From Flavobacteriales bacterium UBA852 (GTDB lineage Bacteria; Bacteroidota; Bacteroidia; Flavobacteriales_E; Vicingaceae): a stretch of 64,000 nucleotides of DNA. The position numbers were made by a program, and so were the translations under genes. The stretch's first letter is position 1. The number at the start of each line of letters is the position of its first letter. The stretch is from the NCBI GenBank assembly GCA_002295925.1, contig DBGO01000010.1, forward strand, positions 161,706 through 225,705, given 5' to 3'. The notes below the pieces were generated by a model. The model searched no databases, was not told the origin of the DNA, and was given only the letters and a program-made list of their open reading frames with translations. This document shows, piece by piece, positions 14,295 to 63,203 of this stretch.

Positions 14295-14312
14295 CAACTA
14301 ACAAATAACACC

Positions 14313-14345
14313 AAAAAAGCTCATCGAAATCGATAAGCTTTTTTA
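14313..14345. terminator. bidirectional rho-independent terminator between convergent pheT and the adhesin gene
   Basis: AAAAAAGCTcATCG-aaat-CGATaAGCTTTTTT: about 9 bp interrupted stem flanked by an A-run and a T-run. Confidence 0.6.
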
Positions 14346-14366: not shown

Positions 14367-16253
14367 TTATCTGACAATCGTAACACTGCCCTTCAATTCA
14401 TACTCTTTTCCATCTATTCCGGTAGCTTTTATTATATAATAATACGTACCGTCAGGAACTTCTTTACCTGAAGACGTTCTTCCGTCCCAGTAACTTTTTT
14501 CATTTTCCAGTTGGAAAATCATTTCGCCCCATCTGTTCCAAATTGTTCCGGTAAGCGATGTTAAATTATCCGACTCAACTCGGAAAACATCATTCACACC
14601 ATCATTATTAGGTGTAAAGATATTTGGCACAACTAATACCGATTCACCAATTACTTCAATTGTAACTGTATCTGTTGCTGTACAGAACCCTTCGGTAACG
14701 GTTAATGTTACCAAATAATTACCTAAAGAATCGTAAGTATGCGAAACCGAGGCACCATTATCAGTTGTTCCGTCTCCCAAATCCCAGTTATAAGTATAAT
14801 TTGGATTTGTAGTCGTAGAAAAATCTACATCAAGCGGAATAATTCCGGATGTTGGCGAAGCATTTATCGATGCTATAGGATTATAAACGGTTACCGTTAC
14901 ACTATCCATTTGATTACTACATCCATTACTCTTTGATTGATAGTAATAAGTAAACACTCCTCCTGATGTAATGGAAGGCGTAAACGAATTTCCGGTAAAA
15001 ATCAAATTATTACCTTGTGCATCACTGTACCAGTATAATGTATCAGTAGTAGATGAGGAATAATTAACAGGCAAACCTGAAAAACATAACGTTGTATCGG
15101 TAAATGATACTTGTTGTGGAACAGGATTCACGGTTACAGTTGTAATAATAATACTGTCACATCCGTTAACTGTTGACAAGGTATCGAAATATGTACCGGC
15201 ATTACTTTGATATCCTCCACCGACTAACACACTATCACCTTGACATATAGCAACATTTGCTTGACTTGTAGCCACAGGATATATTGTTATCTCAAAAGAA
15301 TCTACTTTTTGAGGACATGTGTTTGTAGCTGCAACTGTATTATAAATCATATAAGTACCTGCAGAACTGTTTGTTAAATCAATTTGTCCTGTATTAGGGT
15401 CAAGACTCACATTACTGCTTGATGAACTAAACACACCCGCTGCACTTCCGGGTAAAATGGTCGGCAATATTGTTGTAGTATCGTTTTCACAAAATGGCGA
15501 ATTATAGGTAAACTCAGCATCCGTACAATTGGGAACTATAGTAAGAATCCAAGGTGAAAAAGTGGACTGATTAGGAATAGGACCTACTGTTCCCACTCCG
15601 CTTGTAACACCTAAATTACCTGGGCCTGCTTGAGGATCCCATGAGGTACCATTCCAATGTTGTGCTTTTACCGTATCATTTGGAAAAGCGGTTGTATTTT
15701 CACTTCCCAAATAAGAAAATGTTAAGTCAGCAGTTACAGTATTGGACGAAGTAATATCCCAAAAGCGGTCAATAGCTGCTACCACAGAATCGGCAAATCC
15801 AGTCATTTGTGTTACAGGTCCAACATTTGTTGCTGCAGCATGCGGCATATTTTGTGGATTTGTTCCCCAAGTAGAAATGGTTATGTCATTATTGGTGTTT
15901 ACAGTTTTATTAAAAGTAAAAGGGATATAGTCTGCTGCATTGTTAGATACACCAAAAGGAAAAACATAATTACCCGTATTGGTTCCGGTAACCCATTTCA
16001 CGTAATGGTATTGATTTTCAGTAGCAATATGCCCTGAAACTCTTACTATACCTGCCGTATCCGGTTGATTTACCACCAAATATACAGGTGTTCCTGCAGA
16101 ACCACCATTCATAATAGTATAAGCACCATTTAGAATAAGTGTATTGTTTTGGCCATAACTGTTTAAAAACAGCAGTAAACTAAATACAGGCAATGTTTTA
16201 ATTATTAAATATTTAATATTCATGATAACAAATTTTTTATTGTTATTATTCAT
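14367..16253 (-). CDS. secreted adhesin-like protein with PKD domain and T9SS type-B (gliding-motility-associated) C-terminal sorting domain
   Basis: Signal peptide; PKD motif (PLDVDFSTTT…WDLGDGTT…SHTYDSLGNYLVTLTV); C-terminal VVPNIFTPNNDGVNDVF…WNRWGEMIF…DGTYYY type-B CTD; alternative ATG at 16223. Confidence 0.85.
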   Translation of the reverse strand: MNNNNKKFVIMNIKYLIIKTLPVFSLLLFLNSYGQNNTLILNGAYTIMNGGSAGTPVYLVVNQPDTAGIVRVSGHIATENQYHYVKWVTGTNTGNYVFPFGVSNNAADYIPFTFNKTVNTNNDITISTWGTNPQNMPHAAATNVGPVTQMTGFADSVVAAIDRFWDITSSNTVTADLTFSYLGSENTTAFPNDTVKAQHWNGTSWDPQAGPGNLGVTSGVGTVGPIPNQSTFSPWILTIVPNCTDAEFTYNSPFCENDTTTILPTILPGSAAGVFSSSSSNVSLDPNTGQIDLTNSSAGTYMIYNTVAATNTCPQKVDSFEITIYPVATSQANVAICQGDSVLVGGGYQSNAGTYFDTLSTVNGCDSIIITTVTVNPVPQQVSFTDTTLCFSGLPVNYSSSTTDTLYWYSDAQGNNLIFTGNSFTPSITSGGVFTYYYQSKSNGCSNQMDSVTVTVYNPIASINASPTSGIIPLDVDFSTTTNPNYTYNWDLGDGTTDNGASVSHTYDSLGNYLVTLTVTEGFCTATDTVTIEVIGESVLVVPNIFTPNNDGVNDVFRVESDNLTSLTGTIWNRWGEMIFQLENEKSYWDGRTSSGKEVPDGTYYYIIKATGIDGKEYELKGSVTIVR

Positions 16254-16509
16254 TTTCTTTTTTATCTGTATTAGATAAAAAAGGTAATAACCTTGTTTTT
16301 GAATTCTTATTAATATCAGAAGATTTCTCTGATATTAAAAGTTTTGATTTATTTAAATTCTTATCATTTAAATTATTTTTAGTATCACTTTCTGTTTTTC
16401 CAGAAACAGCTAATTTTGGTTCTTTGGCATCTGTACTTTTTGTTTGCGAATACGAACAAAATGAAACAAAAAGCAAACTAAGGAATGTTATTATTTTAAA
16501 AAACTTCAT
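16246..16509 (-). CDS. small secreted Lys/Ser/Asn-rich protein (87 aa)
   Basis: Signal peptide (…FCSYSQT), low-complexity K/S/N/D-rich body; 12 nt downstream of the collagen-like gene; stop overlaps the next ORF by 8 nt. Confidence 0.5.
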   Translation of the reverse strand: MKFFKIITFLSLLFVSFCSYSQTKSTDAKEPKLAVSGKTESDTKNNLNDKNLNKSKLLISEKSSDINKNSKTRLLPFLSNTDKKENE

Positions 16510-16521
16510 ATTATATTTCTT

Positions 16522-17547
16522 TTATTGCATTACTGTAATAGACATATGATGCCCTGGTTGAGAAGGGTCAATTACAGCATTATAAGTACCATATATTCCA
16601 CCAACTAAACCTTGAACAGTTATTGTATACGTATTACCAACTGTTAATCCTGTCACATATCTCGTCATTGAACAACTCCAAGGTGTAATGGTGCCAGTTA
16701 CATCATCATAACTTTGTATTTTTGTATTTGTACTACCAATGGGCGAACCATTATTTAAAATTCTAAATTGCACAAATGCCATGGAGTTTGTATAGCCATA
16801 CCCTGATGAAGAAAAATTTATAATTGCATCTGAGGTAACGGCAACAAAGGAAACTGAAATTGAAGGTACTGTAGCCCATGATGCACTACTTACTGTTACG
16901 GCACTAGATAAAAAACTTCCTGTTTTCAAAGTAACCCCAGGAGGGCCTTGAGGACCCTGCGGACCCTGTGGGCCTTGTGGACCCTGCGGGCCAGTAGCAC
17001 CTGTTGGTCCTTGTGGGCCTTGCGGACCGGCTGGACCTTGACAATCTAAAGCATCCCAAACACCATCACCATTTATATCTTCAGATGGATCTTGAACTCC
17101 ATCTCCATCTGCATCCCAGCATGCAATTCCGGCTGGACCTTGTGGACCCTGAGGACCTTGCGGACCGGCTGGACCTGTTGGGCCCTGAGGACCTTGTGGG
17201 CCTTGTGGGCCTTGTGGACCCTGAGGACCCTGAGGACCTTGTGGACCTTGTGGACCTAAAGCTTGTACCCATTGTGTACCATCCCAATACCAAAATCCTA
17301 CACTCCCTCCTGTCATGGCAGGATTTATATTGTACACCAACAAACTAACCGCAGGAGAAGGTATTGTTACTACATCTGTTGTAGATTGTAAACTTACTCT
17401 TGGTATTAACACCCCTTTATCTGTATAATTAACATCTAATGCTGCCGAAGGGTCAGGCAAAGCTCCCGTTGTATTAATACCTACATTTTGTGCAGATAAA
17501 ATTGTTATTGCAAATAATAATAGAATAAATAATTGAAATTTTTTCAT
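16522..17547 (-). CDS. secreted collagen-like triple-helix repeat protein, short paralogue (341 aa)
   Basis: Signal peptide; 77-aa N-domain; 14 + 11 GXY triplets (GPQ/GPT/GPA) split by [27 protein letters not shown]; 138-aa C-terminal globular region. Confidence 0.85.
16939..17256 (-). repeat. 9-bp-periodic collagen (Gly-Pro-X) coding repeats, two blocks (16939-17037, 17131-17256) around a unique 93-nt insert
   Basis: Read directly: tandem ttgtggacc/ctgaggacc/ggctggacc units on the plus strand (GPQ/GPA on minus). Confidence 0.9.
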
Positions 17548-17559
17548 GTTTTTTTGTTT

Positions 17560-17913
17560 TTAAGGTTTATTTCGCTCTTCACCACCAACTACTGCTTTAC
17601 TTTTACTTATACTATTATTATCTGTATTTACTTGACGCATTTTATACTCTTGCTTCATTTTTTCAATCTCTTCTTTACTAACAACTCTAGTTCGAGTTGG
17701 TGTACTAACAGTCTTATCTTCATTTATAACACTTGTTTCACTATTATCAAAATACTGGATACTTTCTTTAATTTTTTTAATTTCAGATTTTTTAAGCACT
17801 CGAGTATGCGTAGGTGTTCTTATAATAGAATCTTCATTATTTACAACCTGTTCTTGTCCATATATAACCTGAAAACCAAAAAATATTAACATTATTACTA
17901 ATACGTTTTTCAT
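17560..17913 (-). CDS. small secreted Lys/Glu-rich protein with an internal duplication (117 aa)
   Basis: Signal peptide (…VIYGQEQ); two copies of TPT[HR]TRV..K.EI.K.K; gaps of 14 and 12 nt to the flanking collagen-like genes. Confidence 0.5.
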   Translation of the reverse strand: MKNVLVIMLIFFGFQVIYGQEQVVNNEDSIIRTPTHTRVLKKSEIKKIKESIQYFDNSETSVINEDKTVSTPTRTRVVSKEEIEKMKQEYKMRQVNTDNNSISKSKAVVGGEERNKP

Positions 17914-17927
17914 AACATTACATTTAA

Positions 17928-19379
17928 TTAATCAAATATTGTTAGTACACAATGGTCTGCTACAGTTGATAGAGTAGGATTTATTTCTACCCTCCATGGA
18001 GATGATGCCCAGTTCAATACTGGTTTCCATTGTATAGTTATTGTATGTGAACCAGGAGGTAAATTAACTGGCACACCTGAAAAAGACACCGTTCCAGAGG
18101 TTGTAACATATAATCCTCCACTTGCACCCTGATCAAAATCAGTTAATAATGTTGCTGCTCTTGCTACGACATTACCATCTACTAATATTCTTGCTTGTAT
18201 TATTCCTTGACCAAATTGAGCATTACCGGAATTATCTGCTAAACGAGCAGTAAATGAAGCAAATATATAAAATGTATTATGTACAGTAGTCATAGTTATT
18301 GACATGCCTGGAATAGTTTGAAATGAAGTAGTATTTGTATTTGTTGCTAAAGTAGATAAGCTTATACTTTGAGCATTATTACCATACATTGGAATAGAAG
18401 TTGGCGTCTGCCACACAGGAGCGTTACCAGCACCTTGACTGGTTAAAATTTGTCCGGCTGCACCGGGATTTCCACCTGGTCTCAAATCACCGGTAAATTG
18501 AATATTTCCATTTACGTCTAGCTTTTGACTGGGTGATGTATTACTAATACCAACATTTGTACCATTATCAGTAATTATACTACAAGTAGCGGATGAACCA
18601 TTAGATTTTAAAACCTGGTTTGCTGTTGAACACCCAACTGGACCGGGAGGGCCTTGTGGACCCTGTGGGCCTGTAGCGCCTGTTGGGCCTTGTGGACCTT
18701 GCGGACCGGCTGGACCTGTTGGGCCCTGTGGACCTTGTGGGCCAGCTGGTCCTTGTGGTCCTTGTGGTCCTTGACAATCTAAAGCATCCCAAAAACCATC
18801 ACCATTTATATCTTCAGATGGATCTTGAACTCCATCTCCATCTGCATCCCAGCAAGCAATTCCGGCTGGGCCCTGCGGACCCTGTGGACCTGCTGGACCC
18901 TGTGGACCTGCTGGACCCTGTGGACCTTGTGGGCCTTGAGGACCGGCTGGACCTGTTGGACCTGTTGGACCCTGTGGACCTTGAGGACCGGCTGGACCTG
19001 TTGGGCCCTGTGGACCTTGTGGGCCTTGAGGACCGGCTGGACCTTGTGGACCCTGTGGACCTTGTGGGCCTAAAGCTTGAACCCATTGTGTTCCGTCCCA
19101 ATACCAAAAACCTACTGCACCCCCGGTCATTGCAGCATTGGTATTATATACCAATAAACTTACTGCTGGCGAAGGTATTGTTACTACATCAGTTGTTGAT
19201 TGTAAACTTACCCTGGGAATCAATACCCCCTTATCAGTATAATCCACATCCAAAGCTGCCGAAGGATCAGGCAAAGCACCTGTTGTGTTAATTCCTATAT
19301 TTTGCGCTTTAATGCTATTGATAAATAACATTAGTAAACAAGCAAATATTAACTTCTTCATAATTATTTGATTTTGCAT
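17928..19379 (-). CDS. secreted collagen-like triple-helix repeat protein, long paralogue (483 aa)
   Basis: Signal peptide (possible start at Met7, 19361); same N-domain; 23 + 15 GXY triplets split by [27 protein letters not shown]; 235-aa C-terminal region with [15 protein letters not shown] and [16 protein letters not shown] motifs. Confidence 0.85.
18636..19070 (-). repeat. 9-bp-periodic collagen coding repeats, two blocks (18636-18770, 18864-19070)
   Basis: Same tandem 9-nt units as at 16939-17256; block lengths confirmed from residue and coordinate arithmetic. Confidence 0.9.
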
Positions 19380-19449
19380 AATTTTTATTTAACGAAGATT
19401 TGACGATGTAATAATAAAAAAAGTTGCATCAAATACCAAAAAAATAAAA

Positions 19450-19457
19450 TAGTTTTG
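19450..19457 (+). promoter_or_regulatory. candidate -7 box (TAgtTTTG)
   Basis: Exact TAnnTTTG match 14 nt upstream of the ATG at 19472. Confidence 0.4.
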
Positions 19458-19471
19458 TAAAAAATAAATTT

Positions 19472-60842: not shown

Positions 60843-63203
60843 TTATTTTTCAACAATAATTTTATGTGTATTTAACGTACCTTTCTCACGAATAAAATAA
60901 ATGCCATTTGCAATATTTTCTTTTAGCGTTAGCGGTTTATTTTCAAATACTTGGTATATGTTTATTATTTTACCATTTATATCAATAAGTTCAAATTTAC
61001 TGTCATTTTCTGAAGAAATTGTAAATATTCCATTATTAATACTGGGAAAAACAGACCAATTTGATTTATTATCTATACCATTATTAACTGATGTATTATA
61101 AATATACATTTTTGTAACAAACACATCATCATTTCCCCCTCCATGTGTTGATTGATAAGCATTAGAAGTGACAGGGTAATTTAATGACAATGTTCTTCCT
61201 GCTATCACAATTTCCCCCGAATTATTTCGGGCTATGGCATACCCGTCTTCATTTTGAGTTCCACCCAGGTATGTTGAATAATACAAATATGAGCCGGTGT
61301 TATTTAGTTTACTTAGCACCACATCTGTTGCCCCCATATTTGAATTTTGATATGCTCCCGAAGTAATCGGAAAATTATTTGAAATTGAATTACCAACAAT
61401 ATAAGCATTATTATCATCATCTATGACTATAGAATACGCCTCATCTCCTGAAGTTCCACCTAAAAATGTAGAGTATTCAATATTAGAACCTAAAGTATTC
61501 ATTTTAGTAACAAAAATATCCATAACACCACCTCCAAAAACAGGTTGAACTGCGGTTGAAGAAGTGTAAAAATCTGAAGAATATGTATATCCCGTTACAA
61601 AGGCATTTCCTGCTGTATTTACAGCAATTGCTCGTCCAAAATCTCTATCAGAACCACCTAAATAGGTAGAATAACTTAAAGTTGTTCCTGATGAATTAAT
61701 TTTAGTTACAAAAGCATCTCTTAATGAACCTCCATAAGTTTGTTGCATTGCTCCAATAGTTACCGGAAAATCTGTTGACTTGGTTTCTCCGGTTATATAT
61801 GCATTTCCTGAACCGTCAACAGCTATTGAAAAGGCATAATCTTCATCACTACCTCCAATGTATGTTGCATATTGTAACGAAGAAGCATTACTGTTAATTT
61901 TTGCAATTACTGCATCTATGCTTCCACCGGAACTGGATTGAGCAACACCCGTAGTTACAGGAAAATCGGAAGCATAAGTATATCCCGTAATAAAAATATT
62001 TCCAGTTGCATCTACAGCAATAGATTTGCCAACGTCTAATCCGGTACCTCCTAAATATGTTGAAAACATCAAGTTTGAACCTGTACCATTTAATTTTGTA
62101 ATAATGATATTCCCCGAAGGATTAGTGTTGGTCTGAAATGTGCCTGAAGTTAAGGGATAATCACTTGAATTTGTATAACCAGTTATTATTACATTATTAT
62201 TAGCATCAAGTGCTATTGCTAATCCATTATCATCCGAAGCAGTACTTCCACCTATATATGTTGAGTATATTAATGAAGTGCCTGAACTATTAAGTTTTGT
62301 AATAAAAATATCATTATTTCCTCCGGCATAAGTTGTTTGGTATGCTCCAGCTGTAATATCATAATCAGTTGAAACTGTGGAACCAACAACATAGACATTT
62401 CCATTATTATCTATTTCTACATCATTTGCATAATCATAATTACTGCCACCCAAATAAGTTGAGTAAATTAACGGGTCAATGATTAAATCTTGAGATTTGT
62501 CATAGTCTCCAAGATCAAAAGTCCATTTACCATCTTTTAAAGAAATATACTTAGCATCAACTTGCTTATTATTTTGCTGATAAACTTTCAATTGAGCAAT
62601 TTCTACTTGCCCAAATCTTGTTGTAAAAACCAAATTATTGTTCTTATTTATAAATGTTTCATCACTTCCTTCAATATTGAAAATTATATCAGATGGGTCA
62701 GAACCCGGATGAACAATATAATCGTATCGTAAAAATCCTTTATCAAAATAATATCTGATATCAATTCCGTCGTAAACATTTTTCACAACAACTTCTTTGT
62801 ATAAATTGATATTTGAAACATGTTTTGCTTTATTATTACCTAAAAAGTAATGAAATTTCGCAGATAAATTTCCTACATTTTCTGTTTCAATATTTTGACT
62901 ATTTGAATTTTTTAATTTCATTAAAATTCGATGACCGATAACTTTAGTTGTATTATTCGTTTTATATTGAAAATCAGTCTCTAAAGAGTAAAAATTATAA
63001 TTTAAACCATACTTAGTTATCCATGCATCCATATTACCAAATCGAGCCAAATACAAAACATCCGAATGCCACTGACCTTTGTTTTCGATAAAAAAATGGT
63101 TATCAACTTTAAATTGTTTTAATTTACTTTTTTTTATATCCGATGCTTCTATAGATGCACCCATATTAAACGCAACTAAAAATAACAAGATTAATCTTTT
63201 CAT
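60843..63203 (-). CDS. SBBP (beta-propeller) repeat protein with T9SS type-A C-terminal sorting domain
   Basis: Signal peptide; seven ~65-aa repeats (YSTYLGGS…D…IAVD..GN.YITG.T.S.DFP.T.GA.Q…D.FVTKLN..G); C-terminal …FPSINNGIFTI…ANGIYFI…HKIIVEK. Confidence 0.85.
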   Translation of the reverse strand: MKRLILLFLVAFNMGASIEASDIKKSKLKQFKVDNHFFIENKGQWHSDVLYLARFGNMDAWITKYGLNYNFYSLETDFQYKTNNTTKVIGHRILMKLKNSNSQNIETENVGNLSAKFHYFLGNNKAKHVSNINLYKEVVVKNVYDGIDIRYYFDKGFLRYDYIVHPGSDPSDIIFNIEGSDETFINKNNNLVFTTRFGQVEIAQLKVYQQNNKQVDAKYISLKDGKWTFDLGDYDKSQDLIIDPLIYSTYLGGSNYDYANDVEIDNNGNVYVVGSTVSTDYDITAGAYQTTYAGGNNDIFITKLNSSGTSLIYSTYIGGSTASDDNGLAIALDANNNVIITGYTNSSDYPLTSGTFQTNTNPSGNIIITKLNGTGSNLMFSTYLGGTGLDVGKSIAVDATGNIFITGYTYASDFPVTTGVAQSSSGGSIDAVIAKINSNASSLQYATYIGGSDEDYAFSIAVDGSGNAYITGETKSTDFPVTIGAMQQTYGGSLRDAFVTKINSSGTTLSYSTYLGGSDRDFGRAIAVNTAGNAFVTGYTYSSDFYTSSTAVQPVFGGGVMDIFVTKMNTLGSNIEYSTFLGGTSGDEAYSIVIDDDNNAYIVGNSISNNFPITSGAYQNSNMGATDVVLSKLNNTGSYLYYSTYLGGTQNEDGYAIARNNSGEIVIAGRTLSLNYPVTSNAYQSTHGGGNDDVFVTKMYIYNTSVNNGIDNKSNWSVFPSINNGIFTISSENDSKFELIDINGKIINIYQVFENKPLTLKENIANGIYFIREKGTLNTHKIIVEK

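What the first reader, a model, noticed from the sequence alone, without database searches (positions are those of the whole stretch)
14367..19379. Five-gene operon: duplicated [collagen-like stalk + small Lys-rich secreted protein] module ending in a T9SS type-B adhesin
Seen: five same-strand ORFs run 19379-17928, 17913-17560, 17547-16522 and 16509-16246 with 12-14 nt gaps, then overlap by 8 nt into 16253-14367. The block is closed by the hairpin terminator at 14313-14345 and wedged between unrelated housekeeping genes (pheT; marC/rnhA). Genes 1 and 3 are paralogues with the architecture signal peptide, 77-aa conserved N-domain, collagen triplets, Ca-binding insert, collagen triplets, and different heads. 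Genes 2 and 4 are both short, carry signal peptides and are low-complexity K/S/N/E-rich. Gene 5 has a PKD domain and the PNIFTPNNDGVNDVF type-B sorting domain. Established: GXY repeats form trimeric rods in bacterial surface proteins (streptococcal Scl, Bacillus BclA), and type-B CTDs target cargo to the T9SS. Inference: this is a surface-fibre or adhesion apparatus offering two alternative stalks and heads, each with a dedicated small partner. I do not recognise this architecture as a described system. The collagen-like proteins have no T9SS CTD that I can see, so their route beyond Sec is unexplained.
Basis: partly seen in the sequence, partly recalled or inferred. Interest (0 to 1): 0.75.

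Follow-up and report, generated by a model that had tools for sequence, protein, structure and literature searches.

The report
Collagen-stalked surface fibre operon, Bacteroidota
A marine Flavobacteriales bacterium carries a five-gene operon for two collagen-stalked fibres with TNF/C1q-like tips, each paired with a tiny secreted partner that tracks the tip type, followed by a type IX secretion protein that is a conserved neighbour of such fibres and may be their unknown surface anchor.

Summary
In detail: five tightly spaced minus-strand ORFs (19379-14367), one strong terminator, housekeeping flanks. g1 and g3 each have a signal peptide, a 78-aa N-domain (Pfam PF26696 'PTL_trimer', inferred from relatives), a Gly-Pro-X collagen rod (about 34 and 23 nm) split by a Cys-bracketed DxDxDG insert, and a TNF/C1q-like head (AF2 pLDDT 89; top matches are trimeric TNF-like lectins). 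g5 has a very conserved 205-aa N-domain, Ig_7, PKD and a T9SS type-B CTD.

Comparison of 156 related loci gave two rules. First, a small signal-peptide ORF follows 10 of 11 proteins ending in this head, against 2 of 131 PTL_trimer proteins without it (p = 1e-12). Siblings without it commonly end in a Peptidase_S74 chaperone. Partners fall into two motif classes that follow head type. Second, g5-like proteins and PTL_trimer fibres are reciprocal neighbours (about 21 of 24 close loci; 42 of 65 in the reverse direction).

The closest characterised analogues are Bdellovibrio MAT fibres and Bacillus BclA. I read this as a Bacteroidota mosaic trimeric fibre locus. The head-specific partners and the T9SS link appear undescribed. 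Surface location, partner function and export route remain inferences. Verdict: new variant of a known kind; interest about 0.55.

The parts
19380..19471 (-). 92-nt AT-rich region upstream of g1, divergent from marC; presumed promoter region
   Evidence: Read. No exact Bacteroidota -7 motif (TAnnTTTG) on the minus strand here. One sigma-70-like match spans 19439-19411, which is weak evidence. The promoter is not identified.
17928..19379 (-). g1: fibre 1 (483 aa), signal peptide, PTL_trimer N-domain, collagen rod, insert, collagen rod, neck and TNF-like head
   Evidence: ORF; Collagen PF01391 E 1.4e-18; no T9SS CTD and no Peptidase_S74.
19071..19304 (-). g1 N-domain (aa 26-103), Pfam PF26696 'PTL_trimer' type
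   Evidence: All 18 homologues (51-88% identical over the aligned region) carry precomputed PF26696, which names. A profile search finds 38,397 representative clusters. Gln at +1 after the predicted SPase I site.
18855..19070 (-). g1 collagen run 1: 24 G-P-(Q/A/T) triplets, about 20.6 nm
   Evidence: repeat family D1.
18768..18860 (-). g1 insert [29 protein letters not shown], two DxDxDG loops bracketed by Cys176 and Cys202
   Evidence: Only sub-threshold Dockerin, EF-hand and FG-GAP hits for the g1 insert; TSP_3 (E 0.2) appears only for the g3 copy. The insert recurs in L009, L010 and L014.
18627..18770 (-). g1 collagen run 2: 16 triplets, about 13.7 nm
17931..18617 (-). g1 neck motif ([17 protein letters not shown]...) plus TNF-like head ending ...DHCVLTIFD
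   Evidence: hhalign against head profile A3: probability 97.2%, E 4e-11. Homologues L067, L068, L071 and L073 at E 1e-57 to 3e-72.
17560..17913 (-). g2: small secreted partner of the g1-type head (117 aa), basic and low-complexity, with two T-P-T-x-T-R-V repeats
   Evidence: Family with L067_s, L071_s and L073_s (E 3e-13 to 6e-6), each directly downstream of a g1-type head. Repeat motif 6 observed against 0 expected. No Pfam, NCBIfam or PHROG family.
16522..17547 (-). g3: fibre 2 (341 aa), same architecture with a shorter rod and a head without the neck
   Evidence: Collagen E 2e-15.
17257..17490 (-). g3 N-domain (aa 20-97), 94% identical to that of g1
17122..17256 (-). g3 collagen run 1: 15 triplets, about 12.9 nm
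17038..17121 (-). g3 insert [27 protein letters not shown] (Cys143 to Cys169)
16930..17037 (-). g3 collagen run 2: 12 triplets, about 10.3 nm
16525..16926 (-). g3 TNF/C1q-like jelly-roll head ending ...[10 protein letters not shown]
   Evidence: AF2 with a 36-sequence alignment: pLDDT 89.2, pTM 0.83. Foldseek PDB: PLTL 9ib7 E 4.6e-6 with TM 0.67-0.71, BC2L-C-Nt, Bd2734, C1q, collagen X NC1, BxpB. BFVD: heads of giant-virus collagen proteins, E 2.9e-10.
16246..16509 (-). g4: small secreted partner of the g3-type head (87 aa), K/S/N/E-rich, with P-x-L motifs
   Evidence: Related to L081_s (E 1.5e-6), which sits downstream of a 341-aa g3 orthologue. P-x-[LIV] enrichment in g3-type partners: 23 against 6.7 +/- 2.2.
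14367..16253 (-). g5: T9SS type-B cargo (628 aa, or 618 aa from Met11 at 16223)
15534..16151 (-). g5 N-terminal domain (aa 35-240), highly conserved, in no known family
   Evidence: 63% mean column identity and more than 70 invariant columns across 13 distant homologues. No Pfam or PDB hit. Reciprocal synteny with PTL_trimer fibres.
14886..15110 (-). g5 Ig_7 (CHU_C-associated Ig-like) domain
   Evidence: PF19081 E 1.8e-9.
14652..14870 (-). g5 PKD domain
   Evidence: PF18911 E 8.9e-15; PF00801 E 1e-11.
14376..14633 (-). g5 type-B T9SS C-terminal sorting domain
   Evidence: PF13585 CHU_C E 2e-21 (76.3 bits, cutoff 27); TIGR04131 E 2.5e-15 (56.4 bits, cutoff 35).
14312..14345 (-). Intrinsic terminator hairpin closing the block
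   Evidence: 15-bp stem, 4-nt loop and T-run.

Best explanation
This is a chromosomal operon for two Sec-exported, trimeric fibre adhesins of a very large Bacteroidota family. Each fibre has a conserved PTL_trimer (PF26696) base domain directly after the signal peptide. Next comes a Gly-Pro-X collagen rod of about 34 nm (g1) or 23 nm (g3), interrupted by a Cys-bracketed acidic knot. At the tip is a TNF/C1q-like jelly-roll head of the type used by trimeric lectins. Shown: domain content, head fold, family size and gene order. Inferred: (a) the fibres are homotrimers displayed on the cell surface with the head outward, and they bind a glycan or another surface ligand. (b) g2 and g4 are head-specific partners that bind their cognate head through repeated short linear motifs. 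They most likely act in the periplasm as an assembly, registration or capping factor. That role is taken in sibling fibres by a cis C-terminal Peptidase_S74 intramolecular chaperone. (c) g5 is exported by the T9SS and held on the outer membrane through its type-B CTD by a PorP/SprF-like protein encoded elsewhere. Its very conserved distal N-domain would be the docking or co-export partner for the fibre base. This would explain how fibres without a CTD end up on the surface.
For: Identity as a fibre: Collagen HMM hits; 24+16 and 15+12 uninterrupted G-P-X triplets; a confident TNF-like head model matching the trimeric lectins PLTL and BC2L-C-Nt, the Bdellovibrio fibre tip Bd2734, C1q, collagen X NC1 and BxpB, and heads of viral collagen proteins and phage fibre tips; phage tail-fibre PHROG hits that extend beyond the collagen into the post-collagen region of g1 (phrog_819) and across the g3 head (phrog_6320, phrog_5073). 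Modularity: the same head occurs fused directly to a short N-terminus with no collagen. The same N-domain is joined to Peptidase_S74, MAM or Lcl_C ends and occurs in tandem arrays. Export: all five proteins have a signal peptide with Gln at +1, which is the Bacteroidetes Q-rule for SPase I substrates (PMC5837995). Partner: 10 of 11 C-terminal TNF-like heads are followed by a small signal-peptide ORF, against 2 of 131 PTL_trimer proteins without that head (Fisher p = 1.1e-12). Among those are about 16 complete relatives ending in an LEKRIEALENK-type coiled coil, and the one scanned has Peptidase_S74. Two partner classes co-vary with head type: the g2 family with T[P/A]T..[R/K][I/V] repeats accompanies g1-type heads, and P-x-[LIV]-rich partners accompany g3-type heads. 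Both motifs are significant against shuffles, including a hold-out set. g5 link: a g5N homologue lies directly downstream in about 21 of 24 informative close loci. In the reverse direction, 42 of 65 informative metagenomic g5N loci have a PTL_trimer protein directly upstream. g5N is far more conserved than the rest of the protein. More distant PTL_trimer genes are often followed by other T9SS-CTD proteins (7 of 23). Type-B CTD cargo is surface-anchored by PorP-like proteins (PMC9143113). Operon: 12-14-nt gaps and one strong terminator.
Against: There is no experimental or transcript evidence for expression, trimerisation or surface location. The N-domain did not fold confidently as a monomer (pLDDT 63), so nothing structural supports an N-domain/g5N contact. 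N-domains next to g5N are not a distinct sequence subtype (35-86% identity, overlapping those without g5N). 18 of 65 g5N loci lack an upstream fibre, and most of the 38,397 PTL_trimer clusters cannot all have a g5N partner. TNF/C1q heads normally trimerise unaided: Bdellovibrio non-S74 tips were crystallised alone (PMC10769870). A chaperone is therefore not obviously needed. The partners have no similarity to known tail-fibre assembly proteins. One stalk-less head protein (P0068) has no partner. No PorP/SprF gene lies in the window. I know of no precedent for piggy-back export through the T9SS.
Confidence: 0.6

Rival explanations
1. The fibres are real, but g5 is an independent T9SS adhesin that is only co-regulated with them. 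The fibres would reach the surface or the medium by another, unknown route, or be anchored by their own N-domain to LPS or another surface element.
For: N-domains next to g5N are not a special subtype. 18 of 65 g5N loci have no upstream fibre. The PTL_trimer family (38,397 clusters) is far broader than the g5N pairing. In Bdellovibrio, which has no T9SS, analogous fibres are surface-displayed through an unidentified element (PMC10769870).
Against: The adjacency is reciprocal, on the same strand and immediate across genomes with g5N identity down to about 37%. The part of g5 farthest from the membrane is the most conserved, which is the opposite of what is expected for an environment-facing adhesin tip. 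Other T9SS-CTD proteins are enriched downstream of distant PTL_trimer genes (7 of 23).
Confidence: 0.25
2. The small partners are not assembly factors. They would be functional accessories of the mature fibre: basic, disordered adaptors or 'glue' that bridge the head to anionic polymers, or removable caps that mask the lectin site until the fibre is deployed.
For: Mature partners are disordered-looking, Lys-rich and mostly net positive (+1 to +15; two of the 19 are -1) and carry 0-5 short linear motifs. TNF-like tips of Bdellovibrio fibres fold without helpers (PMC10769870). The partners have their own signal peptides with Gln at +1, so they meet the head outside the cytoplasm.
Against: In the sampled loci the partner and the cis Peptidase_S74 chaperone ending do not co-occur, which is the pattern seen in phages for trans versus cis fibre chaperones (my own knowledge of Tfa proteins versus S74 domains). 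Nothing here distinguishes transient from permanent binding.
Confidence: 0.3
3. The block is a remnant of a prophage, tailocin or extracellular contractile injection system, and the collagen proteins are its tail fibres.
For: Many PHROG tail-fibre families hit g1 and g3. The head fold is common in phage fibre tips. Sibling proteins carry Peptidase_S74.
Against: There are no other phage, sheath, tube or baseplate genes in the 64-kb window. All five proteins have Sec signal peptides. The N-domain is almost absent from 2.9 million viral contigs (1 locus) against 525 stretches in genome representatives. The locus sits between housekeeping genes and is identical in independent marine assemblies. 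g2, g4 and g5 have no PHROG hit.
Confidence: 0.03
4. g2 and g4 are not genes but chance ORFs in AT-rich spacers between the fibre genes.
For: They are low-complexity, and g4-type partners are barely alignable. No database family exists. The word-indexed search with g2 found only itself.
Against: A small ORF is present at the same position in 10 of 11 head-bearing loci across distant genomes. Every one of the 19 partners has a signal peptide followed by Gln at +1. The g2 family is conserved at E down to 7e-21. Motif enrichment holds against shuffles. The 12-14-nt gaps leave no room for anything else.
Confidence: 0.04

Closest known systems
Bdellovibrio bacteriovorus MAT (mosaic adhesive trimeric) fibres (Caulton et al. 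2024, PMC10769870)
   Same: Sec signal peptide followed at once by a conserved beta-rich domain. A trimeric shaft. The family splits into members ending in Peptidase_S74 and members that do not. Tips are swappable and include TNF-like lectin domains; Bd2734 is a direct structural hit. The surface anchor for the N-domain is unknown in both.
   Different: A different phylum. The N-domain here is 78 aa (PF26696) against about 130 aa, and homology between the two was not tested. The shaft here is a collagen triple helix and not a beta-helix. MAT fibres have no reported small head-specific partner genes and no T9SS-linked neighbour. MAT function is prey recognition by a predator.
Bacillus exosporium BclA with its anchor BxpB/ExsFA
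   Same: N-terminal attachment domain, Gly-X-Y collagen rod and trimeric TNF/C1q-like head. The fibre is attached through its N-terminus to a separate, dedicated anchor protein. BxpB appears among the fold hits (8d02).
   Different: No sequence relationship was detected. BclA is a Gram-positive spore-surface protein and is not Sec/T9SS-associated. Here the candidate anchor domain g5N is unrelated to the TNF fold.
Trimeric TNF-like bacterial lectins PLTL (Photorhabdus, 9ib7) and BC2L-C N-terminal domain (Burkholderia, 2wq4)
   Same: They are the best structural matches to the g3 head (E 5e-6 to 2e-5, TM 0.63-0.71). They bind fucosylated glycans at protomer interfaces.
   Different: Sequence identity is only 12-14%. 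Conservation of the sugar-binding residues was not examined. Those lectins have no collagen stalk.
Streptococcal Scl1/Scl2 and Legionella Lcl collagen-like adhesins
   Same: Bacterial surface adhesins with a collagen-like rod.
   Different: NCBIfam scores are far below the cutoffs (55-83 bits against 325-500) and come from the repeats only. There is no LPXTG motif. In Scl the head is N-terminal. An Lcl_C-type end occurs in some distant PTL_trimer relatives (L028) but not here.
Phage tail fibres with a cis (Peptidase_S74) or trans (tail fibre assembly, Tfa) chaperone
   Same: The same either/or arrangement: a fibre ends in an S74 intramolecular chaperone or is followed by a small dedicated gene. 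Collagen-plus-knob fibres are common in phages.
   Different: The partners here are secreted, disordered and unrelated in sequence to Tfa families (no PHROG hit). The fibres carry signal peptides and a cellular N-domain.
T9SS type-B cargo anchored by PorP/SprF-like proteins (SprB-SprF, PG1035-PorP; PMC9143113)
   Same: g5 has a bona fide type-B CTD preceded by Ig_7 and PKD modules.
   Different: There is no cognate PorP/SprF gene next to g5 or elsewhere in the window. g5 is short and carries a unique, highly conserved N-domain linked to fibre genes.

Membership tests
Pfam Collagen (PF01391) | HMM score above the gathering cutoff; uninterrupted Gly-X-Y triplets | tested here: met
   g1 66.8 bits and g3 56.7 bits against a cutoff of 27.2. 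Runs of 24+16 and 15+12 triplets.
Pfam PF26696 PTL_trimer | Match to the family model | tested here: inconclusive
   The local Pfam copy lacks this model, so g1 and g3 could not be scanned directly. Indirect evidence is strong: all 18 homologues of the N-domain (up to 86% identical over 100% of it) carry a precomputed PF26696 hit, and the name comes.
TNF/C1q-like jelly-roll head | Ten-strand jelly-roll fold similar to TNF/C1q domains | tested here: met
   The g3 head model has pLDDT 89.2. There are 64 PDB matches at E<=1e-3; the listed ones are mostly TNF-like lectins, C1q, EDA, 4-1BBL, collagen X NC1 and BxpB. The g1 head is linked by hhalign at 97% probability, but only over the neck and the first half of the domain.
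TNF/C1q-like jelly-roll head | Homotrimer with ligand sites at the protomer interfaces | not testable with these tools
   No multimer prediction was available. Trimerisation is inferred from the fold and the adjoining collagen rod.
T9SS type-B cargo (TIGR04131 / PF13585 CHU_C) | C-terminal type-B sorting domain above cutoff, plus an N-terminal Sec signal | tested here: met
   g5: CHU_C 76.3 bits (cutoff 27) and TIGR04131 56.4 bits (cutoff 35) at residues 541-626. Signal peptide with Gln at +1.
T9SS cargo (any CTD type), applied to g1-g4 | Type-A (Por_Secre_tail) or type-B CTD at the C-terminus | tested here: not met
   No CTD model hit at E<=0.1 in g1-g4. The C-termini of g1 and g3 are the TNF-like head.
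T9SS type-B cargo with a cognate anchor | PorP/SprF-like outer-membrane protein encoded nearby | tested here: not met
   None among the candidate secreted and outer-membrane proteins of the window or next to g5 homologues in related loci. A copy elsewhere in the genome cannot be excluded.
Bdellovibrio-type MAT fibres | Signal peptide followed directly by a conserved beta-rich N-domain shared by all paralogues | tested here: met
   The N-domain starts right after the signal peptide in g1, g3 and 139 of the top 149 family members. Homology to the MAT N-domain itself was not tested because no sequence was at hand.
Bdellovibrio-type MAT fibres | S74 and non-S74 subfamilies with swappable tips, including TNF-like tips | tested here: met
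   Siblings with Peptidase_S74 (L003, L075, P0093, P0109). TNF-like, MAM and Lcl_C ends.
Bdellovibrio-type MAT fibres | Surface display on the cell | not testable with these tools
   This requires localisation experiments.
Scl1/Scl2 (NF038329, NF038330) and Lcl (NF046116) collagen-like adhesins | Whole-protein score above the NCBIfam cutoff; LPXTG anchor (Scl) or Lcl C-terminal domain | tested here: not met
   35-83 bits against cutoffs of 325-500, and the matches cover the collagen repeats only. There is no LPXTG motif and no Lcl_C hit in g1 or g3.
Thrombospondin type-3 repeat (PF02412) | HMM score above the cutoff | tested here: not met
   E 0.2 and 11.8 bits against a cutoff of 25 for the isolated g3 insert, and no TSP_3 hit for the g1 insert. 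Dockerin and EF-hand hits are equally weak. This is a generic DxDxDG motif only.
Peptidase_S74 intramolecular chaperone fibres (PF13884) | C-terminal S74 domain | tested here: not met
   Absent from g1 and g3. Present in sibling fibres such as L003:10007-11473 (E 1.3e-15).
Phage tail fibre assembly (Tfa) chaperones, applied to g2 and g4 | Sequence membership of a known Tfa or chaperone family | tested here: not met
   No PHROG, Pfam or NCBIfam hit. Only the gene-order logic resembles Tfa.

The most novel reading that the evidence does not exclude
g5N-type T9SS type-B proteins are dedicated carriers and anchors for PTL_trimer fibres. The conserved g5 N-domain would bind the fibre base in the periplasm. 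The CTD would take the whole complex through the T9SS and tether it to a PorP-like protein. That would be a hitch-hiking mode of T9SS export, and it would supply the missing 'surface element' for MAT-like fibres. In parallel, the small partners would be a new class of secreted, disordered chaperones or caps that grip TNF-like trimers through repeated short linear motifs and replace the cis S74 chaperone.
Probability: 0.2. Interest if true: 0.8.

Novelty: new variant of a known kind. Interest (0 to 1): 0.55.

Why it matters
PTL_trimer proteins form a very large family (38,397 clusters at 50% identity) of Sec-exported Bacteroidota proteins with no recognised outer-membrane export or anchoring signal. 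How CTD-less proteins of this kind reach and stay on the Bacteroidota surface is not known. The anchor of the analogous Bdellovibrio MAT fibres is also explicitly unidentified (PMC10769870). This locus, from an abundant marine Flavobacteriales lineage, gives two concrete and testable handles. The first is a conserved T9SS type-B neighbour whose most conserved part is its distal domain. The second is a strict rule pairing a head type with a small secreted partner, which points to a new kind of helper for TNF/C1q-like trimers. Collagen-stalked lectin fibres on marine Flavobacteriia would also bear on particle, algal and cell-cell attachment. As a practical point, assemblies break at the collagen repeats, so these genes are systematically fragmented and under-annotated in MAGs.

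Tried and rejected
1. Full-length g3 alignment for structure prediction (A2). MAFFT placed half of the N-domain fragments into the head columns, so I dropped it and used separate head (A3) and N-domain (A4) alignments.

2. N-domain AF2 monomer. The model was poor (pLDDT 62.9), so I ran no fold search on it. The domain probably folds only as an oligomer.

3. Sequence searches of the PDB with the N-domain profile, the g1 head, g5N and the g5N profile found nothing.

4. Word-indexed homology search with g2 returned only g2 itself. The g2 relatives came from phmmer on the fetched loci instead.

5. Co-variation test asking whether N-domains next to g5N form a subtype. They do not.

6. Remote homology of g5N to the TNF-like head (a BxpB analogy) or to PTL_trimer was rejected (probabilities 5% and 11%).

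7. Bacteroidota -7 promoter motif scan. The motif is not enriched and there is no minus-strand hit upstream of g1. The sigma-70 scan is at background (31 against 22.8 +/- 4.6).

8. Microdiversity against the Tara contig L079. The two are 100% identical, so this was uninformative.

9. Inverted repeats or invertible switches between the two modules. None were found. The g1/g3 similarity is a direct repeat.

10. Prophage, tailocin or eCIS origin was rejected.

11. Literature searches for PF26696, PTL_trimer, or collagen-like plus T9SS or Bacteroidota fibres found no description.

12. 'Exactly three motifs per partner, matching the three-fold head' was not upheld. Copy number ranges from 0 to 5.

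Full report
OBSERVATION

They are g1 19379-17928 (483 aa), g2 17913-17560 (117 aa), g3 17547-16522 (341 aa), g4 16509-16246 (87 aa) and g5 16253-14367 (628 aa). The gaps are 14, 12 and 12 nt, and g4 and g5 overlap by 8 nt. Public assemblies start g5 at Met11, which gives 618 aa and a 22-nt gap in place of the overlap.

The only strong terminator-like site is the 15-bp hairpin at 14345-14312. The flanks are pheT on one side and marC and rnhA on the other. The raised G+C at 17000-17500 and 18500-19000 is simply the Gly-Pro codons of the repeats.

The source is an abundant marine Flavobacteriales MAG (NCBI names HCQ30536 and others; Tara). g2, g4, g5 and pheT are in the protein collection exactly. 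A 263-kb Tara contig is 100% identical over the locus. The protein g2 is indexed in 134 blocks of the collection.

DOMAIN CONTENT

g1 and g3 pass the Pfam Collagen cutoff. g5 has Ig_7, PKD and a type-B T9SS CTD (PF13585 at 76 bits; TIGR04131 at 56 bits). g2 and g4 match nothing. Scores against Scl and Lcl models are far below the cutoffs and arise from the repeats only.

The collagen rods are nearly pure G-P-(Q/A/T). g1 has 24+16 triplets (about 34 nm) and g3 has 15+12 (about 23 nm). Each rod is split by the same insert of about 27 aa, bracketed by two Cys and containing two DxDxDG loops. That insert gives only sub-threshold hits to Dockerin, EF-hand and TSP_3 models. Calcium binding is therefore plausible, but membership of TSP_3 is not supported.

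All five proteins have a signal peptide followed by Gln at +1. This is the Bacteroidetes Q-rule for signal peptidase I substrates (PMC5837995, PMC10653852).

THE N-DOMAIN

The two N-domains are 94% identical to each other. A search with the 78-aa domain returned 18 proteins, and all carry a precomputed hit to Pfam PF26696. A later look-up names that family 'PTL_trimer'. My Pfam copy lacks the model, so membership is indirect. I found no paper using either name.

A profile search of 1.84 billion representatives found 38,397 clusters at E<=1e-3 and 17,917 at E<=1e-10. In 139 of the top 149 proteins the first copy follows the signal peptide directly. Many proteins carry 2-8 tandem copies. None of ten sampled members has a T9SS CTD, and two of them end in Peptidase_S74.

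The domain is almost absent from viral contigs: one locus in IMG/VR, against 525 stretches in species-representative genomes. It is therefore a cellular module. As a monomer it modelled poorly (pLDDT 63).

THE HEADS

The g3 head (aa 200-341) modelled confidently with a 36-sequence alignment (pLDDT 89.2, pTM 0.83). It is a TNF/C1q-like jelly roll.

The best PDB matches are the trimeric TNF-like lectins PLTL and BC2L-C-Nt (TM 0.63-0.71). After them come the Bdellovibrio fibre tip Bd2734, EDA, C1q-family domains, collagen X NC1 and Bacillus BxpB. In the viral library the best matches are the heads of collagen-repeat proteins of giant viruses and phage fibre tips.

The post-collagen part of g1 aligns to the same family profile (hhalign probability 97%, E 4e-11). 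It adds a neck motif that also occurs at the N-terminus of stalk-less relatives. Many relatives are complete proteins of 213-247 aa, made of a short N-terminus or PTL_trimer domain plus the head, with no collagen. The rod is thus an optional spacer between two conserved modules.

COMPARATIVE GENOMICS: THE SMALL PARTNERS

I fetched 78 genomic loci using the N-domain and 78 metagenomic loci using g5N, and analysed them with my own ORF calls and HMMs.

Among non-redundant proteins with enough downstream sequence, 10 of 11 that end in the TNF-like head are followed within 80 nt by a small signal-peptide ORF of 55-135 aa. Only 2 of 131 PTL_trimer proteins without that head are (Fisher p = 1.1e-12). 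The window's g1-g2 and g3-g4 pairs add two more. Two stalk-less head proteins (P0053, P0059) also have the partner, and one (P0068) does not.

About 16 of the complete siblings without a partner end in an LEKRIEALENK-type coiled coil. The representative I scanned has the architecture PTL_trimer, collagen, Peptidase_S74. Peptidase_S74 is the intramolecular trimerisation chaperone of phage spikes and fibres.

The partners fall into two classes that follow head type. g2, L067_s, L071_s and L073_s form a family (E down to 7e-21) with 2-3 repeats built around T[P/A]T..[R/K][I/V], and they accompany g1-type heads. g4 is related to L081_s (E 1.5e-6), which follows a 341-aa g3 orthologue.

The partners of g3-type heads are barely alignable. 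They share a signal peptide, a Lys-rich disordered composition and an excess of P-x-[LIV] motifs: 23 observed against 6.7 +/- 2.2 in shuffles. In sequences not used to spot the motif the count is 10 against 2.7 +/- 1.4. The motif is absent from g1-type partners. Copy number runs from 0 to 5, so 'three per chain' is only a tendency.

COMPARATIVE GENOMICS: g5

g5N (aa 35-240) is strikingly conserved, with 63% mean column identity and more than 70 invariant columns across 13 distant homologues. The Ig and PKD region behind it varies in length and sequence. g5N has no Pfam or PDB relative. It is unrelated to the head and to PTL_trimer.

A g5N homologue lies directly downstream of the fibre gene, or of the fibre-plus-partner pair, in about 21 of 24 informative close loci. 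In the reverse direction, 42 of 65 informative g5N loci have a PTL_trimer protein directly upstream on the same strand. Five more have a truncated collagen ORF there.

In more distant loci, 7 of 23 downstream neighbours carry another T9SS CTD. No other neighbour is conserved. No PorP/SprF-like gene is in the window. N-domains next to g5N are not a separate sequence subtype, so I have no co-variation evidence for a direct contact.

INTERPRETATION

What is shown is a compact operon-like block. It encodes two paralogous Sec-exported proteins with the architecture PTL_trimer, collagen, TNF-like head. It also encodes two head-type-specific small secreted proteins and one T9SS type-B cargo protein that is a reciprocal genomic partner of such fibres.

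What is inferred is as follows:
- The fibres are homotrimers on the cell surface, with a lectin-like tip held 23-34 nm away from the base.
- The small proteins bind their cognate head through short linear motifs. They act as a trans assembly or capping factor in place of the cis S74 chaperone.
- g5, anchored through its type-B CTD to a PorP-like protein (PMC9143113), offers its conserved distal domain as a dock or export partner for the fibre base.

The first point is well grounded in the fold and in analogy. The other two are hypotheses supported only by gene order and conservation patterns.

One counter-argument is that TNF-like tips fold unaided in Bdellovibrio (PMC10769870). Another is that I know of no precedent for piggy-back export through the T9SS. 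In addition, 18 of 65 g5N loci have no fibre upstream.

COMPARISON WITH KNOWN SYSTEMS

The closest characterised system is the MAT fibre family of Bdellovibrio (PMC10769870). It has a conserved beta-rich domain after the signal peptide, S74 and non-S74 subfamilies, and swappable tips that include TNF-like lectin domains. [quoted passage not shown]

BclA with BxpB in Bacillus is the closest collagen-stalk analogue. Phage fibres supply the logic of cis versus trans chaperones.

The locus is not a member of the Scl, Lcl or TSP_3 families, and it is not a phage remnant.

NOVELTY

The fibre type is a new variant of a known kind. What I could not find described anywhere are two things: the rule pairing a head type with a small secreted partner, and the reciprocal link to a T9SS type-B protein with a dedicated conserved N-domain.

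I score interest at about 0.55. The family is very large and the anchoring and export question is open, but every functional step still needs experiments.

Noticed in passing
L035:9890-10306 and neighbours; proteins P0019, P0020, P0024: Minimal PTL_trimer proteins (125-138 aa) consist of a signal peptide, one N-domain and a short tail ending in the conserved sequence ...CYTCDGF. In L035 this gene is followed by two small signal-peptide ORFs (132 and 113 aa) and a 702-aa protein with a type-B CTD.
   Followed up: no
L015:7416-9419 (also L001:7905-9914 and L022:7838-9820): A TPR plus TMTC-like (protein O-mannosyltransferase DUF1736) gene sits directly upstream of the fibre in L015. That fibre has a long Ser/Lys/Glu-rich C-terminal tail in place of a head or an S74 domain, which may hint at fibre glycosylation. 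Similar-sized upstream genes in L001 and L022 were not scanned.
   Followed up: partly
P0081 (1432 aa), P0085, P0086, P0197: The PTL_trimer domain forms tandem arrays of up to 8 full copies with linkers of about 20 aa. It is therefore a repeatable shaft module as well as an N-terminal base.
   Followed up: partly
window 16223-16253: The start of g5 is ambiguous. The longest ORF (628 aa) overlaps g4 by 8 nt. Public gene calls use Met11 (618 aa), which leaves a 22-nt gap and gives a more typical signal peptide.
   Followed up: partly
Database entries P0016-P0033 and contig ends at L005, L006, L009 and L026: Most public copies of these fibre proteins are fragments ending inside the collagen repeat, often at contig ends. 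Short-read assemblies break there, so the family is under-represented and mis-annotated in MAGs. One g2 relative is even labelled 'ribosomal protein S8'.
   Followed up: no
window 60843-63203 (minus strand): A 786-aa signal-peptide protein with DUF7948 and six SBBP beta-propeller repeats but no detectable T9SS CTD. In L018 an SBBP protein that does have Por_Secre_tail lies just upstream of the fibre locus.
   Followed up: no
L164:6001-6246 (IMGVR_UViG_3300025882_000391): This is the only viral-collection contig encoding a PTL_trimer domain (67% identity). I did not check whether it is a true phage or a misclassified cellular fragment.
   Followed up: no
window 15640-15670 (g5N) and 19080-19100 (g1 N-domain): g5N and the PTL_trimer domain share a short motif, [H/Y]W[N/D]G[T/S]xW (HWNGTSWD against YWDGTQW). 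hhalign does not rate it significant (probability 11%).
   Followed up: partly
L003, L004, L012, L015, L016, L019-L022 downstream of the g5-like gene: In many Vicingaceae-like genomes the fibre plus g5-like pair sits directly upstream of three genes that I read from their sizes and C-termini, without scanning them, as rpsL, rpsG and fusA. That would be a different chromosomal position from the window's marC-pheT site. The pair would then move as a unit.
   Followed up: no
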